Below are positions 1-7,991 of a DNA stretch of 7,991 nucleotides, in pieces; position 1 is the first letter of the stretch, and every line of letters begins with the position of its first letter. A program made the translations under genes and the position numbers. This DNA is from a virus (taxonomy: Duplodnaviria; Heunggongvirae; Uroviricota; Caudoviricetes). Below the pieces are notes generated by a model, which did no database searches, was not told the origin of the DNA, and saw only the letters and a program-made list of their open reading frames with translations. Location: the IMG/VR virus record IMGVR_UViG_3300011226_000007; one strand, 5' to 3'.

Positions 1-127
1 CATATTCACGACGAGCAATGCGGCTACCCTGCGGCGTCAGCAGAATGTCCCGCACCGACTGGCGCAGATGGTCAATATCAGTAATAACTTTGCCGTTGGT
101 ATTGTTCATCCCGCTATAAAGCGTCAT
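1..127 (-). CDS. W: Baseplate assembly protein W (gp25/GPW-like), 5' part only; 3' end lies beyond the window start
   Basis: Not in the ORF track because it runs off the edge. Reverse-complement of 1..127 reads ATG at 127..125 then MTLYSGMNNTNGKVITDIDHLRQSVRDILLTPQGSRIARREY..., which resembles the P2 gpW N-terminus. Its ATG overlaps the V stop (ATGA). Confidence 0.75.
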   Translation of the reverse strand, partial: MTLYSGMNNTNGKVITDIDHLRQSVRDILLTPQGSRIARREY

Positions 128-702
128 ACCGGGCCTCCGGTTGTATCGCCGCCTTTCAGGACGCCAGTATGCTGATGCGCATCAACCACGATCCCGTTAG
201 AACTCATCGCTCCGCCGCCCTGGGTAACGCCACCATTGATCACCACTTCGCTGTCAATGCGCGTGCGGTCAGCCTCCAGTACAAACTCACTGGTTTTCAT
301 GGTGATGTTGTCAGCGGCCTCAATGACCATTGATTTGATGCCCCTGACATACCAGCGCCCGGTGGCGGGTTCGTATTCAAACCAGCCACCGTCAGGATGT
401 TCTGTCACGCAGGCGTCCGCCGACGTCGACGGTGGTGCGAACTGATTCGAATAGATGGCGGGTAACGCAAAGGCGGTTTCCAGATTGCCGCCCAGACTCA
501 GCAGCACCACCTGCTCACCTTCCGATGGTCGCCACCATGTCCGGGCATTCCCGGCACGCAGGGTCAGCCAGCTGATCCAGTTGGTTTCTAAGTCGCCTGT
601 TTTCACCCGGCAAAGCCAGTTCTCTCGGTCCACTTCGGTCACGATGCCGGTGCGGATCAGGTTGGTGATAAGGCGCATGATTTCGGTTAATTGTACGTTC
701 AC
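124..702 (-). CDS. V: Baseplate assembly / tail spike protein V
   Basis: 192 aa ORF; sequence MNVQLTEIMRLITNLIRTGIVTEVD...HQHTGVLKGGDTTGGPV resembles P2 gpV over its whole length (recall, not a search). Start is GTG at 702 preceded by purine-rich RBS AAGGGGGGAAGG (reverse-complement of about 705..716). Stop TGA overlaps the W start. Confidence 0.9.
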   Translation of the reverse strand: MNVQLTEIMRLITNLIRTGIVTEVDRENWLCRVKTGDLETNWISWLTLRAGNARTWWRPSEGEQVVLLSLGGNLETAFALPAIYSNQFAPPSTSADACVTEHPDGGWFEYEPATGRWYVRGIKSMVIEAADNITMKTSEFVLEADRTRIDSEVVINGGVTQGGGAMSSNGIVVDAHQHTGVLKGGDTTGGPV

Positions 703-739
703 CCTTCCCCCCTTAAAGATGAACTGTATCTCAATAAGT

Positions 740-748
740 TGTATTATT
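740..748 (+). promoter_or_regulatory. Possible sigma70-type -10 element (TG-TATTAT) for the cargo operon
   Basis: AT-rich 87 bp divergent intergenic region 703..789; TATTAT at 742..747 preceded by TG at 740..741; no convincing -35. About 40 nt upstream of the ATPase ATG at 790. Weak, sequence-only guess. Confidence 0.2.
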
Positions 749-762
749 ATCAGTGTTGTAGT

Positions 763-780
763 TGTACTGTTAACGACACA
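763..780. promoter_or_regulatory. TGT-N12-ACA dyad, candidate Ogr/Delta-type late activator site (putative P_V late promoter element)
   Basis: TGTactgttaacgacACA at 763..780 is the only exact TGT-N12-ACA in the V upstream region. P2 late promoters (P_P, P_O, P_V, P_F) carry this dyad centred near -55. Centred here at about 771.5, which would put the TSS near 717, very close to the V RBS, so spacing is tight. Confidence 0.3.
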
Positions 781-789
781 AGGGAATAT

Positions 790-2019
790 ATGCTTACATC
801 AATAAATGAAATTCATGCTCCAATTCCATACACTAATAAGACAGCAAACTTATTTCTTGAGGGTAAAAATCTCATAATAACTGGTGGTAACGGGTGTGGA
901 AAAACTAGTTTCATTAGATCTATTTATGATTTCCTTAAAAGTAAGATAGATACACCTAATGATCATAATATTAATAATTTATACAGTACGTTAGAGTCCT
1001 ACAAATATCAATTGAATAGCGACGGGCGTGACGGCTTTAATTACGACTTTTATTCTGAAGAAATAAAAAAGATTGAATTAAAAATTGAACAATTAAAAGC
1101 CATTAGAATAGAAACAAAAGAAAAAGAAGGTGAAATTCGTTCACTATTGAGATTTCACAAAGCTCTACGTGAAGCATCAATTACCTCGCCAGTCGCCGTT
1201 CCTAGGCTATCAGCTTTAATTAAAGAAAAGTCACATTTTTCTAATGAAGTAGATGGTGATGATTTCTTTGAGAATTATTTGGTTAGCTTAAAAACCGCTC
1301 AGAGCTATGCAATTTCTTTTGATAATGACCATAATAAAGCTCAGCGGATACAGGAATGGTTTGATAAAATTGAAACTGATATGCAGGAACTTTTTGAAGA
1401 TAAAAACCTCTTACTAACGTTTGATAGTAACGAAGGAAAATTTTATCTCAATCAAGATGGTAAAGATAAGTTTACTTTTCAAACATTATCTTCTGGCTAC
1501 TCATCAATATTGAGAATTTATGCTGACTTAATAATGAGAGTAGAGATGTGGGAGTTAACACCTGACAGTATCGAAGGTATTGTTTTTATTGATGAAATAG
1601 ATGCGCATTTACATGTTTCTTTGCAAAAGCAAATATTAAGATTTTTTAGTCACGCCTTTCCTAAAGTACAATTCATTGTGACTACACATTCTCCGTTTGT
1701 TGTTACATCCGTCACAAATGCCATCATTTATGATCTGTCGACCAACACGCAAATTAGTGATGTATCTTCATATTCTTACGGTATCATCCTTCAAGAGTTA
1801 TTTGGAGTAAGTCCAATATCTAAAGTTCTTTCAGATAAGTTAGAACAACTTCAAGATATTATTGATAATATTAACAACAACAATATTGAAACTGCCAATA
1901 ACATAATACAATCCTTAGCACCTTTAGATGAATCCATGGACATAAATGCAAGTGCATTTATTGACTATGCAAAAATGCAGGTTTTAAAATATAAAAAAGC
2001 AAATTCTCAGGAGAAATAA
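790..2019 (+). CDS. ABC-type ATPase (AAA_15/AAA_21-like) with coiled-coil insertion; Septu PtuA-like defence ATPase candidate
   Basis: Track ORF 691..2019; preferred start ATG 790 (RBS AAGGGA at 780..785), because the 691..789 extension overlaps the V start and its upstream region. Walker A TGGNGCGKTS at 883..909; K/E-rich coiled-coil segment (EEIKKIELKIEQLKAIRIETKEKEGEIRSLL); signature-like TLSSGYSS; Walker B plus D-loop IVFIDEIDAHLH at 1579..1614; H-loop FIVTTHSPF. About 30% GC. Stop TAA 2017..2019 overlaps the next ATG. Confidence 0.8.
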   Translation: MLTSINEIHAPIPYTNKTANLFLEGKNLIITGGNGCGKTSFIRSIYDFLKSKIDTPNDHNINNLYSTLESYKYQLNSDGRDGFNYDFYSEEIKKIELKIEQLKAIRIETKEKEGEIRSLLRFHKALREASITSPVAVPRLSALIKEKSHFSNEVDGDDFFENYLVSLKTAQSYAISFDNDHNKAQRIQEWFDKIETDMQELFEDKNLLLTFDSNEGKFYLNQDGKDKFTFQTLSSGYSSILRIYADLIMRVEMWELTPDSIEGIVFIDEIDAHLHVSLQKQILRFFSHAFPKVQFIVTTHSPFVVTSVTNAIIYDLSTNTQISDVSSYSYGIILQELFGVSPISKVLSDKLEQLQDIIDNINNNNIETANNIIQSLAPLDESMDINASAFIDYAKMQVLKYKKANSQEK

Positions 2020-2680
2020 TGTTCAAGGTTAATAGAACATATCCTGCACCAAAGTCGCTTTCCAAGAAAGTACGTTATGACGGTGCTGATGTACATGAAG
2101 CACTACAGGAATGCTTTTATGGAAAATGTTACATTTGCGAAACAAAGAACCCTTTGGATATAAACATTGAACATTTTAAACCCAAGGGTGATGATGTGGA
2201 AAGAGCTTTTGATTGGGATAATTTATATCTATCATGTTCCAGATGTAACAATATAAAACTATCAAAATATGACAACATTCTTGANNNNNNNNNNGCTGTA
2301 AAGAAAAGGTATGGGATCGAGTAAAATTACTCCCAGGATATTCTTATAAAGCAAAAAAAATAACAGTAACAGCACTATTTAATGATATTGAAACGCAGAC
2401 GACCGCAGAGTTACTTGAGAAAGTATATAATAGCGATCATACCATGAGTAAAAAATTAACTTCTGCGGCACTTCGTACTCAAGTAGTGAAAACAACCCAA
2501 AAACTAATAAAAAATATTAATGAATATTATGAAGAAGATACTCCAACAGAACAAAAAAAATACTTAATTGAAAAAATGAAGATGATGATAAAAAGAGACG
2601 CAGCTTTTTCATCATTTTGCAGATGGATCATTATGGAAGATGCTGAATTAGGTCCAATTCTTGAACCATTTATGGATTAG
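2019..2680 (+). CDS. HNH-family nuclease (Septu PtuB-like candidate); single gene split in the track by a frame-breaking 10-N run
   Basis: ATG 2019 with RBS AGGAG at 2009..2013. HNH motifs: CYIC at 2127..2138, EHFKPK (His at 2172..2174), CSRCNN at 2235..2252. The track frame stops 9 codons after the N run (2285..2294), but the +2 frame is stop-free from 2297 through the track ORF 2444..2680 (49 codons without a stop in 30%-GC DNA). So 2019..2324 and 2444..2680 are most likely one gene of about 220 aa. Stop TAG 2678..2680. Confidence 0.7.
2285..2294. other. N run (10 nt), unknown sequence inside the HNH gene
   Basis: Directly visible; flanking coding frames differ, so the true length is not 10. 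Confidence 1.
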
Positions 2681-2683
2681 TAG

Positions 2684-2718
2684 TAAAAAGCCGCCTTCTA
2701 AGAAGGCGGTATTGATTA
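2684..2718. terminator. Rho-independent terminator, likely bidirectional (stronger for minus-strand transcripts)
   Basis: Stem CCGCCTT (2691..2697) / AAGGCGG (2703..2709), extendable to 9 bp, with loop CTAAG. Minus-strand reading gives the hairpin followed by TTTTTACTA; plus-strand reading gives TATTGATTA. Sits immediately after the HNH stop and downstream of S. Confidence 0.5.
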
Positions 2719-2874
2719 CATCCTAAAAGGGCGCACCAAAACCTTTAAAAAGAATCCACTGCCAGTTTTGTAACATTTAAATTCAAAGGCAATAAGGTAG
2801 AGCCAAAACCAGTTGATGATCACGCCCAAAGGACGTGGTTTTCAGTCAGCAATAAATGAAGTAGTCTAGTCACA

Positions 2875-3324
2875 TTATTTTATTAACAACTGAAACAATA
2901 TATCTTTTACTATATTTTCTGCATATTCATTCATTCCAAGTAAACGACGCTCTGCGTATCGTACTTCCGGTCCTTTGCGACTAACACGATCACGCAGGCC
3001 GTAATGGTGAACACGGGCAATACGCTGTACCTTACCTTCAAACTGCACGCTGGCAGAATCGGCGCTGGCGGCAGTTTTCAGGTATTTTGTGGTGCGAAGC
3101 TTTGTAAACATCTGACGTTTGATGCGCCCCTTTTTACTACGTGCTGTTACCCTTCGCGGTTCATAGCTGCTGNNNNNNNNNNNNNNNNNNNNNNNNNNNN
3201 NNNNNNNNNNNNNNNNNNNNNNNNNNNNNNNNNNNNNNNNNNNCATCATGCGACTTCTCGTGGCTGGTTCCAGATTCGCCAGCAAGGCACTCAACCAGTC
3301 GTCCACCTTCTGCAGTTCAGCCAC
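2875..3324 (-). CDS. S: Tail completion / virion morphogenesis protein S
   Basis: 149 aa ORF in the P2 gpS position (downstream of R) and of the expected size (P2 gpS about 150 aa); GTG start at 3324 overlaps the R stop (GTGGCTGA). Contains a 71-nt N run (3173..3243), so the internal sequence is unknown. Identification is by position, size and general family resemblance. Confidence 0.65.
   Translation of the reverse strand: MAELQKVDDWLSALLANLEPATRSRMMXXXXXXXXXXXXXXXXXXXXXXXXSSYEPRRVTARSKKGRIKRQMFTKLRTTKYLKTAASADSASVQFEGKVQRIARVHHYGLRDRVSRKGPEVRYAERRLLGMNEYAENIVKDILFQLLIK
3173..3243. other. N run (71 nt) inside gene S
   Basis: Directly visible. Confidence 1.
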
Positions 3325-4272: not shown

Positions 4273-4715
4273 AGTCCAGCTCCTTTAAGGCACCAGGCCA
4301 TCTCCCGCGCACGGCGGTTATCCAGCCCCTGATTAAAAACACCTTTCACATAAACCCAGCGCGGCAACTGTCGGCACGCATCCGCCCAGCGCCGCTGATT
4401 GAGCAATTTCACCAGCGTGGAGCTGNNNNNNNNNNACCTTTCCAGCGCCCTCTCCACACGCAGCACGTTGGAGATCATCCCTTCCGCTGCCTGTCGTTCC
4501 GTAATGGTTTTGCCCGGGATGACGCCCGATGTATTACCAATGCCGTCGGTCCAGACACCCGCGCTGCACTGATACGGCTGCAGACGACAGCCTTCGTAAT
4601 CAGCAATCAGTTTCAGCCCCTCCACGGAGGTGTGAAGCTGCTGAAAACCCGGCAGCGTGGCAGTAATAGCCAGCACGGTCCCGACAAGGCAGCGTTTAAC
4701 GATTGATGGATTCAT
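4269..4715 (-). CDS. K: Endolysin, T4-lysozyme/GH24-like with N-terminal SAR (signal-anchor-release) segment
   Basis: 148 aa as read (10-N run at 4426..4435 inside); N-terminal hydrophobic stretch VKRCLVGTVLAITATLPGF; lysozyme motifs EGLKLIADYEGCRLQPYQ...GVWTDGIGNTSG resemble P22 gp19 / phage 21 R-type lysozymes. ATG 4715 with RBS GGGAGGA. Confidence 0.85.
   Translation of the reverse strand: MNPSIVKRCLVGTVLAITATLPGFQQLHTSVEGLKLIADYEGCRLQPYQCSAGVWTDGIGNTSGVIPGKTITERQAAEGMISNVLRVERALERXXXXSSTLVKLLNQRRWADACRQLPRWVYVKGVFNQGLDNRRAREMAWCLKGAGL
4426..4435. other. N run (10 nt) inside endolysin gene K
   Basis: Directly visible; lysozyme-like sequence continues in the same frame on both sides. Confidence 1.
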
Positions 4716-5675: not shown

Positions 5676-6304
5676 TTAGCGGCTGTCACTGCGCAATTTG
5701 CGCTCCAGCTGCTGCTTTTCTTTTTTCACGCCGCAGCGGGGATCGAGCTGCAGCGCANNNNNNNNNNGCTTTCACTCAGGACAGCGCCAATCGCTTTATG
5801 CAGACGCGCCCGTGACTGGTCCGGCATATCCAGACCGTCTGTCAGTTCCAGCGTCTGCAGCAACAGATCGGCATCAAAGCCGGTGGCGGCAAGCATTGCG
5901 CTCTGCGCGGCGTCTGCCATTTCCTCTGCCAGCACGGTCTGCACGTTGCGGTTACCCAGCGGCATCACCCAGCCATGACGCAGGGCATGACGCCCGATCT
6001 CCAGCGCCCCGGCATAATCTCCGGCATCAATGCGCCACAGCATCACGTACATCAGCACGTCATCCTGTTGAGCGCCTCCGGCAGCCAGGACACCCTCCGC
6101 CCAGGCGGCGTACTTCGGCAGCAACTCCACTTTGATTTCCGCTTTTTTGACCGTGGACTGAACGCCCTTGAGACGGCGTCGGTCTTCCGCTAGTTGCAGC
6201 AGCATCAGGTCATAGCCCGACGCGTGGCGAACGCTGCCGCCCTCGCGGGCGGCCTGTTCAGCCTGAACGCTCAGGCGATGCTGCCGTGCGGGACTCAGGC
6301 TCAT
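5676..6304 (-). CDS. M: Terminase small (endonuclease) subunit M, interrupted by a frame-breaking N run
   Basis: N-terminal 176 aa (MSLSPARQHRL...LHKAIGAVLSES) resembles P2 gpM. After the 10-N run (5758..5767) the track frame stops at 5726, but a different frame reads LDPRCGVKKEKQQLERKLRSDSR then TAA at 5678..5676, resembling the gpM C-terminal region. So the true end is 5676 and the N run is not a 1:1 mask. ATG 6304 with RBS GGAGCG inside the end of N. Confidence 0.85.
5758..5767. other. N run (10 nt) inside terminase gene M
   Basis: Directly visible; frame-breaking (see M). Confidence 1.
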
Positions 6305-7413: not shown

Positions 7414-7991
7414 TTACCGCCTGNNNNNNNNNNNNNNNNNNNNNNNNNNNNNNNNNNNNNNNNNNNNNNNNNNNNNNNNNNNNNNNNNNNNNNNNNNNNN
7501 NNNNNNNNNNNNNNNNNNNNNNNNNNNNNNNNNNNNNNNNNNNNNNNNNNNNNNNNNNNNNNNNNNNNNNNNNNCACGCTGGCGGTAGTCCTGGCGGCTG
7601 TCTTCATGACTCAGCTTATTCACCAGTTCGTTAAAGGCGGTCTGCTGTGCCTGCAGGGCAGTCTCCAGCTCAGACAGACGTTCTTCCTGCTCAGACAGGG
7701 ATTTTTCGGTGCGTCCGCTCAGGTTCTGCTGCTCAGTGGCGACCAGCTCCACGGCCTTATGCACATCAGAGAACCGGGCATCGTCTGACTGCTCTTTTTT
7801 GGTGAACAGCGCCGTGACGCGGGCAAACAGGGACGGTTTGTCGTCCTGGACTTCTTCCAGTTCGATCACCGTTTCCTCTGCGGCGGTAAAGAGATTGGCG
7901 GGATTCTGCTTGCGGTTTGCCAGCGGGTTATGGGCTGCACTGGCGCTGAATGTCAGCATTTCCGTACCCAGACTGGCGGGGTCATCAATGG
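7414..7991 (-). CDS. O: Capsid scaffolding protein O, partial: N-terminus beyond window end, C-terminus obscured by a 151-N run
   Basis: Track ORF 7414..7959 begins at an internal Met; the frame stays open upstream to the window edge (...IDDPASLGTEMLTFSASAAHNPLANRKQNPANLF...), resembling the middle of P2 gpO. N run at 7424..7574 covers the 3' part, so the stop at 7414 is provisional. Confidence 0.8.
   Translation of the reverse strand, partial: IDDPASLGTEMLTFSASAAHNPLANRKQNPANLFTAAEETVIELEEVQDDKPSLFARVTALFTKKEQSDDARFSDVHKAVELVATEQQNLSGRTEKSLSEQEERLSELETALQAQQTAFNELVNKLSHEDSRQDYRQRXXXXXXXXXXXXXXXXXXXXXXXXXXXXXXXXXXXXXXXXXXXXXXXXXXXRR
7424..7574. other. N run (151 nt) covering the 3' part of gene O
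   Basis: Directly visible. Confidence 1.

What the first reader, a model, noticed from the sequence alone, without database searches (positions are those of the whole stretch)
2019..2680. HNH nuclease gene is artificially split by an N run; real product about twice the track ORF
The track shows 2019..2324 (101 aa) and 2444..2680 (78 aa) as separate ORFs. The frame feeding 2444..2680 is open immediately after the N run, with 49 stop-free codons in AT-rich DNA, which is unlikely by chance. The simplest reading is one gene whose frame is broken only because the 10-N placeholder does not match the real gap length. The HNH core (CYIC, His in EHFKPK, CSRCNN) lies in the N-terminal half; the K/E-rich C-terminal half is uncharacterised.
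Basis: partly seen in the sequence, partly recalled or inferred. Interest (0 to 1): 0.55.

Follow-up and report, generated by a model that had tools for sequence, protein, structure and literature searches.

The report
Septu nuclease gene split by gap
The two short ORFs are one ordinary 217-residue gene, the PtuB nuclease of a known Septu anti-phage system carried by a P2-like prophage, and it looks split only because a 10-N assembly placeholder stands in for two real bases.

Summary
The N run lies at 2285-2294. The 2019 ORF and the 2444 ORF are in different frames, and the downstream frame is open from 2297, giving 49 stop-free codons. An assembly that is 100% identical over all 652 called bases of the gene, and 13 complete E. 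coli genomes, place only 2 bases where the window has 10 N; the three sequences aligned across the gap read 'TT'. This gives one 654-nt CDS of 217 aa, and the restored codons are D89 (nearly invariant) and C90 (invariant). All five N runs in the window have untrue lengths.

The joined protein matches a PADLOC PtuB model end to end (E 9e-100). The upstream gene is a full-length PtuA ATPase (E 3e-139) that overlaps ptuB by one base. Listed homologues down to 38% identity are nearly all single proteins of about 217-222 aa, and in the three distant genera whose loci I read they follow a PtuA gene.

The C-terminal half is not uncharacterised. A confident model of an 80%-identical homologue matches solved PtuB chains along its whole length, and in those structures the helical C-terminal domain docks PtuB onto PtuA.

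This is a stand-alone Septu system in the known V-S cargo site of P2-like phages. It is ordinary and already known.

The parts
790..2019 (+). ptuA: Septu ABC-type ATPase, 409 aa. It carries Walker A GGNGCGKT at residue 32, signature-like LSSG at 233, Walker B FIDEID at 266 and TTHS at 298. The TTG start at 691 in the ORF list is an over-extension.
   Evidence: PADLOC PtuA model PDLC00268, E 2.8e-139, residues 2-404 against 2-409 of 411. Pfam AAA_21 and AAA_15. RefSeq start in L001. Motif positions. The nearest solved chains are all PtuA.
2009..2021 (+). Junction of the two genes: AGGAG ribosome-binding site at 2009-2013, ptuA stop TAA at 2017-2019 and ptuB ATG at 2019-2021. The one-base overlap suggests translational coupling.
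   Evidence: Read directly from the sequence. The same 1-nt overlap is annotated in L001, 6191-7420 and 7420-8073.
2019..2680 (+). ptuB: one gene for the Septu HNH nuclease. The true length is 654 nt, 217 aa; it spans 662 window positions because 10 N replace 2 bases. Residues 1-88 hold the HNH core and residues from about 120 to 217 form the helical C-terminal domain.
   Evidence: Alignment to L003 and L001. PADLOC PtuB model PDLC00321, E 9.1e-100, full length. Pfam HNH over residues 37-80. Homologues of 214-227 aa covering 95-100% of the query. Fold match to solved PtuB chains.
2285..2294 (.). A 10-N assembly placeholder standing for 2 real bases (TT). Restoring them gives codons GAT-TGC, D89 and C90.
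   Evidence: D89 is nearly invariant and C90 invariant in 71 aligned family members. All five N runs in the window have untrue lengths.
2353..2360 (+). A8 homopolymer inside ptuB, intact in the window. In four complete E. coli genomes it is A7, which really does split the gene into 111 aa and 78 aa.
2691..2709 (.). GC-rich hairpin CCGCCTTCT-TAG-AAGGCGG between the convergent ends of ptuB (+) and gpS (-). It is a terminator-like site, with the T run on the - strand.
   Evidence: It is one site against about one expected by chance, so position is the only argument for it.
124..702 (-). P2 gpV (baseplate spike), the left boundary of the cargo site.
   Evidence: RefSeq annotation of the matching locus. 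GC content drops from 0.53-0.57 to 0.28-0.35 across the insert.
2875..3324 (-). P2 gpS (tail completion / virion morphogenesis), the right boundary of the cargo site. It contains the 71-N run.

Best explanation
Positions 2019-2680 hold one intact gene, ptuB. It encodes a 217-residue protein with an N-terminal zinc-bound HNH nuclease domain and a C-terminal helical domain. It appears as two ORFs only because a scaffolder wrote a 10-N placeholder where two bases (TT) are missing, which shifts the frame.

ptuB is the second gene of a two-gene operon. The first gene, ptuA, encodes an ABC-type ATPase. Together they form a stand-alone (type I) Septu anti-phage system, carried as low-GC cargo between gpV and gpS of a P2-like prophage and transcribed against the phage late genes.

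By analogy with solved and tested PtuAB systems (inferred, not shown here), PtuA oligomers hold PtuB through its helical C-terminal domain and keep the nuclease in check. Infection by another phage releases or activates it. The HNH site then cuts nucleic acid, either nicking DNA or cutting host tRNA-Tyr depending on the Septu variant, and this stops the infection at the cost of the cell.
For: Shown here:
- The gap equals 2 bases in a contig that is 100% identical over the 652 called bases and in DETEC-P881. All 13 complete E. coli genomes that hold the locus are 8 or 9 bases shorter than the window across it.
- The restored residues D89 and C90 are nearly invariant and invariant in the family.
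- The other four N runs also have untrue lengths.
- Full-length PADLOC matches to PtuB (9e-100) and PtuA (3e-139).
- Among the 120 listed homologues (38-80% identical), nearly all are 214-227 aa and cover 95-100% of the joined protein; a few are shorter partial sequences.
- In Serratia, Vibrio and Pseudomonas the gene directly follows a 408-414 aa AAA_21/AAA_15 ATPase gene (344 aa as called on one of the three Serratia contigs).
- An AlphaFold model of an 80%-identical homologue (pLDDT 94.4) shows a beta-beta-alpha core followed by five helices. Its only significant PDB matches are eight PtuB chains, aligned over 214-260 columns with TM 0.54-0.63.
- There is no reverse transcriptase ORF and no Rfam RNA family in the window.

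From the literature:
- The PtuB C-terminal domain forms a helix bundle with the PtuA C-terminal extension. Stand-alone PtuAB nicks DNA and is inhibited by ATP (PMC12819146).
Against: The two missing bases are inferred from other genomes, not read from this one. The structure model is of an 80%-identical homologue, because the tool would not accept the joined sequence. Sequence identity to every solved PtuB is only 15-20%. The NCBIfam retron-Ec78 PtuA and PtuB equivalog models score far below their cut-offs. The trigger, the substrate and the oligomeric state of this subtype are therefore extrapolated. No experiment on this subtype was found.
Confidence: 0.93

Rival explanations
1. The gene really is broken in this genome. 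The N run would then hide a true frameshift, insertion or deletion, and the strain would carry a ptuB pseudogene making a truncated 100-aa HNH fragment.
For: Real inactivation of this gene does occur. Four complete E. coli genomes (M7424, M00057, M11957 and CNREC_004-43) have lost one A from the A8 run and are annotated as a 111-aa HNH protein plus a 78-aa hypothetical protein. The bases under the N run were never read.
Against: The window has the A8 run intact. It is identical at all 652 called bases to a contig with an intact gene. Three of the five N runs are exactly 10 N but correspond to 2, 79 and 33 bases in the related genome, so 10 is a placeholder value. The open 127-codon downstream frame shows no decay.
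Confidence: 0.04
2. These are two genuinely separate genes: a short HNH nuclease and a small K/E-rich helical partner protein starting at the ATG at 2444.
For: the ORF listing reports them separately. RefSeq annotates them separately in the four A7 genomes.
Against: There is no ribosome-binding-site argument for 2444, and the frame is open for 49 codons upstream of that ATG. The listed homologues are single proteins, nearly all covering 95-100% of the joined sequence, and the gene calls read in four genera show one gene. Conserved residues L129, N135 and T139 lie in the stretch before M140, which a separate gene would leave untranslated. The model folds as one chain matching whole PtuB chains.
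Confidence: 0.01
3. The pair is not a stand-alone Septu system. It would instead be the effector module of a type I-A retron, or another ATPase-nuclease system such as the OLD/Gabija or PARIS type.
For: The closest solved structures by score are the retron Ec78/Eco7 PtuB and PtuA chains. TIGR02646, 'retron system putative HNH endonuclease', gives a weak hit. PADLOC AriA and ATPase_I-A models also hit the ATPase weakly.
Against: No reverse transcriptase ORF lies between gpV and gpS, and no Rfam family including retron ncRNAs reaches threshold. The NCBIfam retron PtuA and PtuB equivalogs score 95.9 against a cut-off of 500 and 26.7 against 150. PtuA here is 409 aa, against 550 aa for retron PtuA with its N-terminal extension and flap (PMC12819146). 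The nuclease is HNH rather than Toprim, which excludes the PARIS, OLD and Gabija types.
Confidence: 0.02

Closest known systems
Septu type I (PtuA + PtuB), PADLOC models PDLC00268 and PDLC00321
   Same: Both proteins match the models end to end (E 3e-139 and 9e-100). The two genes are co-oriented and overlap by one base, and there is no third gene.
   Different: Nothing in the architecture differs. This is the subfamily those models were built from. RefSeq already holds the protein as WP_048980403.1, 'HNH endonuclease'.
E. coli Septu PtuAB complex (PDB 8EE4 / 8EE7 / 8EEA)
   Same: The PtuB fold matches over its whole length (Foldseek E 3.4e-4, probability 1.00, TM 0.53-0.56), with an HNH domain plus a helical C-terminal domain. 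PtuA matches by sequence at E 3e-11.
   Different: PtuB identity is only 15%. PtuA is 409 aa against 465 aa. The oligomeric state (the hexameric, inflammasome-like assembly described for stand-alone PtuAB) and ATP inhibition are untested for this subtype.
Retron Ec78 / Eco7 (type I-A) effector PtuAB (PDB 9NNB, 9L7P, 9VH1 and others)
   Same: This is the best structural match to PtuB (E 1.6e-7, TM 0.62-0.63, 221 columns). The zinc-HNH core motifs are the same, and the C-terminal domain is the part that binds the PtuA C-terminal extension.
   Different: There is no reverse transcriptase, ncRNA or msDNA here. PtuA lacks about 140 residues, which in Ec78 include the N-terminal extension and helical flap. 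The NCBIfam equivalog cut-offs are not met.
Septu Ec-B88 (E. coli JBBDAGI-19-0041), a tRNA-Tyr-cleaving Septu (PMC13096335)
   Same: It is also a stand-alone ptuA-ptuB pair from E. coli, and its defence depends on the Walker A/B and H-N-H motifs.
   Different: The residue numbering differs (PtuA K43 and D316, PtuB H75 and N91, against K38, D268, H52 and N68 here), so it is a different subtype. Whether this one targets tRNA-Tyr or DNA is unknown.
P2 orf30 / V-S moron region
   Same: The cargo site is the same, between baseplate gene V and tail completion gene S. It is listed as one of three moron regions of P2-like phages (PMC6823313).
   Different: P2 itself has a 261-bp orf30 there. This prophage has a 1.9-kb Septu operon, and others have a SIR2 family gene or a 176-aa hypothetical gene.

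Membership tests
Septu (stand-alone PtuAB) | PtuA: ABC/AAA_15-AAA_21 ATPase with Walker A and B motifs | tested here: met
   PADLOC PtuA E 2.8e-139, full length. Pfam AAA_21 at 69 bits and AAA_15 at 50 bits, both above their cut-offs. GGNGCGKT and FIDEID are present.
Septu (stand-alone PtuAB) | PtuB: HNH nuclease with catalytic His/Asn and zinc-binding cysteines, plus a helical C-terminal domain | tested here: met
   PADLOC PtuB E 9.1e-100 over residues 1-217. Pfam HNH at 25.8 bits against a cut-off of 21.4. C37, C40, H52, N68, C73, C76 and N77 are invariant in 71 sequences. The fold matches eight PtuB chains over the full length.
Septu (stand-alone PtuAB) | ptuA immediately upstream of ptuB, on the same strand, as an operon | tested here: met
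   The genes overlap by 1 nt (TAATG) at 2017-2021. The same order is seen in E. coli, Serratia, Vibrio and Pseudomonas loci.
Septu (stand-alone PtuAB) | No associated retron reverse transcriptase or ncRNA | tested here: met
   Only gpV and gpS flank the pair. There are no Rfam matches at gathering thresholds.
Septu (stand-alone PtuAB) | Protects against phage, dependent on both the ATPase and the HNH activity | not testable with these tools
   This needs plaque assays with wild-type, PtuA K38A and PtuB H52A constructs. It has been shown for other Septu variants (PMC13096335).
Retron type I-A effector PtuAB | Adjacent reverse transcriptase and msr/msd ncRNA, and a PtuA with an N-terminal extension and helical flap | tested here: not met
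   There is no RT ORF and no Rfam hit. PtuA is 409 aa against 550 aa. NCBIfam NF041760 and NF041761 score far below their cut-offs.
P2-like (Peduoviridae) prophage late region | Gene order O-N-M-L-X-holin-lysozyme-LysB/C-R-S, then V-W-J-I | tested here: met
   The window is 96-99% identical to the DETEC-P881 prophage, which is annotated with exactly this order.

The most novel reading that the evidence does not exclude
The most novel reading not excluded is that the gpV-gpS (orf30) site of P2-like phages is a third exchangeable anti-phage defence hotspot. It would sit alongside the gpA-gpQ site surveyed by Rousset et al. 2022, and its cargo would be read against the late operons. Here it holds an untested short-PtuA Septu subtype, and elsewhere it holds a SIR2 family gene. 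The A8 tract inside ptuB might then act as a mutational off-switch for a costly abortive-infection module. Only three occupants of the site were looked at, and the four A7 genomes may be a single clonal event.
Probability: 0.3. Interest if true: 0.3.

Novelty: already known. Interest (0 to 1): 0.08.

Why it matters
The main value is as a quality-control result. N runs in this assembly are placeholders of arbitrary length. They break or shorten at least four other phage genes in the same window, so ORF calls next to them should not be trusted.

Biologically, it adds one more example of a P2-like prophage carrying a Septu system as cargo, presumably to exclude competing phages. That fits what is already known about prophage-borne defence and opens no new question.

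Tried and rejected
- I modelled the 80%-identical homologue P0002 with a 70-sequence alignment instead.
- **PDB sequence search too weak for the C-terminal half:** sequence search of PDB with PtuB reached only the HNH core (residues 21-75, E about 0.005), so it could not speak to the C-terminal half. The fold search did.
- **No phage carrier found:** neither DNA nor tblastn searches of the deposited phage collection found the cargo.
- **No RNA element:** the Rfam scan for a retron ncRNA or any other RNA found nothing.
- **No convincing promoter:** the promoter scan gave no more sites than shuffled sequence (10 against 10.9), so I name no promoter for ptuAB.
- **Length-preserving mask rejected:** I considered that the N runs might be length-preserving masks. 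This was rejected because 10/71/10/10/151 N correspond to 2/68/79/33/3 bases in the closest complete genome.
- **Python comparison with L003 failed:** a comparison with L003 in Python failed because that locus was not exported to /data. It was done with DNA alignment instead.

Full report
**Observation**

The window has a run of exactly 10 N at 2285-2294. The ORF listing reports 2019..2324 (101 aa, reading through the N run as XXXX) and 2444..2680 (78 aa) as separate ORFs in different frames.

The frame of the second ORF stays open back to 2297. That is 49 stop-free codons before its ATG. With the local composition (38% A, 30% T) this has a chance probability of about 0.015, and the whole 127-codon open stretch has about 2e-5. 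Off-frame stretches in the neighbouring gene never exceed 42 codons.

**What the N run hides**

A megablast of window 600-2900 against complete E. coli genomes found 13 genomes holding the whole stretch. In every one the matched stretch is 8 or 9 bases shorter than the window.

In strain DETEC-P881 the 10 N correspond to two bases, TT. RefSeq annotates one 654-nt CDS there, 'HNH endonuclease' WP_048980403.1, 217 aa.

Looking up the exact PtuA protein of the window led to a contig of GCA_053261715.1. It is identical to the window at all 652 called bases of the gene, also has only TT at the gap, and carries a called 217-aa gene. Twenty-three further contigs with the same PtuA have a similar gene neighbourhood.

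Restoring TT gives codons GAT-TGC, D89 and C90. In an alignment of 71 family members, D89 is nearly invariant and C90 is invariant.

**The N runs are placeholders**

Against DETEC-P881 the five N runs compare as follows.

| N run in window | Length in N | Bases in DETEC-P881 |
|---|---|---|
| 2285-2294 | 10 | 2 |
| 3173-3243 | 71 | 68 |
| 4426-4435 | 10 | 79 |
| 5758-5767 | 10 | 33 |
| 7424-7574 | 151 | 3 |

Three runs of exactly 10 N standing for quite different true lengths is what a scaffolder's minimum-gap value looks like. That last step is an inference.

**A real split exists elsewhere, but not here**

Four complete genomes (M7424, M00057, M11957 and CNREC_004-43) are annotated with a 111-aa HNH protein plus a 78-aa hypothetical protein. 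In M7424, the one aligned, the cause is loss of one A from an A8 run, which corresponds to window 2353-2360; the other three match at the same length and identity. The window has A8. All four loci sit at nearly the same chromosomal coordinate, so this may be one inherited event.

**What the gene is**

The joined protein matches PADLOC PtuB model PDLC00321 over residues 1-217 against positions 1-223 of 223, E 9.1e-100. Two further PtuB models also match along nearly the full length. Pfam finds HNH at residues 37-80.

The upstream ORF, with its true start at 790 (409 aa), matches PtuA model PDLC00268 end to end at E 2.8e-139. It also matches Pfam AAA_21 and AAA_15, with Walker A, signature-like, Walker B and H-loop motifs in place.

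The two genes overlap by one base (TAATG), and AGGAG lies just upstream of the ptuB ATG.

A search of 5.8 billion proteins returned 312 relatives. Nearly all of the listed ones, down to 38% identity, are 214-227 aa and cover 95-100% of the joined query; a few are shorter partial sequences. They come from Enterobacter, Tatumella, Serratia, Providencia, Vibrio, Photobacterium, Psychrobacter, Pseudomonas and others.

Invariant residues lie in both halves: C37, C40, E51, H52, N68, C73, C76 and N77 in the first, and C90, L129, N135 and F197 in the second.

In Serratia, Vibrio parahaemolyticus and Pseudomonas syringae the homologue is a single gene. It directly follows a 408-414 aa AAA_21/AAA_15 ATPase gene (344 aa as called on one of the three Serratia contigs). 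The pairs sit in integrase-, P4-like- or IS-associated islands.

**The C-terminal half**

The model has mean pLDDT 94.4 and pTM 0.89. It shows a beta-beta-alpha core followed by five helices from residue 121 to 215.

Foldseek against the PDB gave eight significant matches, all of them PtuB chains. Seven are from retron Ec78/Eco7 complexes and one is from the E. coli Septu complex 8EEA. They align over 214-260 columns with TM 0.54-0.63, and the next hit has E above 1.

In those structures the helical C-terminal domain of PtuB is clamped by a pair of PtuA C-terminal extensions in a nine-helix bundle (PMC12819146). The K/E-rich half is therefore most likely the PtuA-docking domain. That is an inference from fold and literature and was not tested on this protein.

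**Which system**

No reverse transcriptase ORF lies between gpV and gpS, and no Rfam family reaches threshold in the window. The NCBIfam equivalogs for retron Ec78 PtuA and PtuB score far below their cut-offs. PtuA is 409 aa, against 550 aa for retron PtuA. This is a stand-alone, two-gene Septu system.

**Likely mechanism**

This part is extrapolated from the literature.
- Stand-alone PtuAB forms a PtuA-driven oligomer that nicks DNA and is inhibited by ATP, and it is reported to respond to phage tail fibre (PMC12819146).
- Which substrate this subtype uses is unknown. It is only 15-20% identical to any solved PtuB.

**Context**

The window is the late region of a P2-like prophage. It carries gpV, then the insert, then gpS, R, LysC/B, lysozyme, holin, X, L, M, N and O.

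The insert has GC 0.28-0.35 against 0.5-0.63 in the flanks, and it lies on the strand opposite to the late genes.

The V-S site is one of three recognised moron regions of P2-like phages, the orf30 site in P2 (PMC6823313). Other P2-like elements carry a SIR2 family gene or a 176-aa hypothetical gene there. Of about 967 E. coli genomes that match the gpV end, only 13 carry this Septu pair. No deposited phage genome carries it.

**Verdict**

This is an assembly artefact splitting an ordinary gene that is already catalogued, the PtuB nuclease of a Septu system. The one correction is that the C-terminal half is a known domain. Interest is low.

Noticed in passing
window 3173-3243, 4426-4435, 5758-5767 and 7424-7574: The other four N runs also have untrue lengths. 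They are 71, 10, 10 and 151 N against 68, 79, 33 and 3 bases in E. coli DETEC-P881. By my arithmetic on the blast coordinates, the frames of gpM (terminase small subunit) and gpO (scaffold) are broken, the lysozyme loses 23 codons while staying in frame, and gpS gains one codon. ORF calls beside every N run in this window are unreliable.
   Followed up: partly
window 2353-2360; L002 1920-2572: In E. coli M7424 the A8 run inside ptuB is A7, which truly splits the gene into 111 aa and 78 aa. Three other complete genomes (M00057, M11957 and CNREC_004-43) carry the same split annotation and match at the same length. All four loci are at nearly the same chromosomal position, so this may be one inherited event rather than recurrent switching. 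A second A8 run lies at 2553-2560.
   Followed up: partly
window 703-2874; L011 3702-5222; L012 3699-4229: The gpV-gpS site holds different cargo in different P2-like elements, always on the strand opposite the late genes. Here it is Septu, in E. coli GW-AmxH19 a SIR2 family protein, and in phage Cartapus a 176-aa hypothetical protein. The Rousset et al. 2022 hotspot survey covered the gpA-gpQ site in P2 and its text does not mention this one.
   Followed up: partly
window 2691-2709: A GC-rich hairpin (CCGCCTTCT-TAG-AAGGCGG) sits between the convergent stops of ptuB (+) and gpS (-). It has an A run before it on the + strand and a T run after it on the - strand. It may terminate both transcripts. 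The scan found no more terminator-like sites than chance, so this rests on position alone.
   Followed up: no
window 691-789: the ORF listing extends the ATPase ORF to a TTG at 691, which would overlap the start of gpV (124-702, - strand). RefSeq and the PADLOC profile both place the start at the ATG at 790. The 88 bases between gpV and ptuA must hold the divergent promoters, and none stood out in the consensus scan.
   Followed up: no
L004-L006 (Serratia), L007-L009 (Vibrio parahaemolyticus), L010 (Pseudomonas syringae): Homologous ptuAB pairs move between different kinds of mobile element. In Serratia they sit in an integrase island beside smpB, and one locus has them downstream of a P4-type primase gene. 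In Vibrio they lie next to IS1 and a resolvase. In P. syringae they lie next to an integrase and umuDC-like genes.
   Followed up: no
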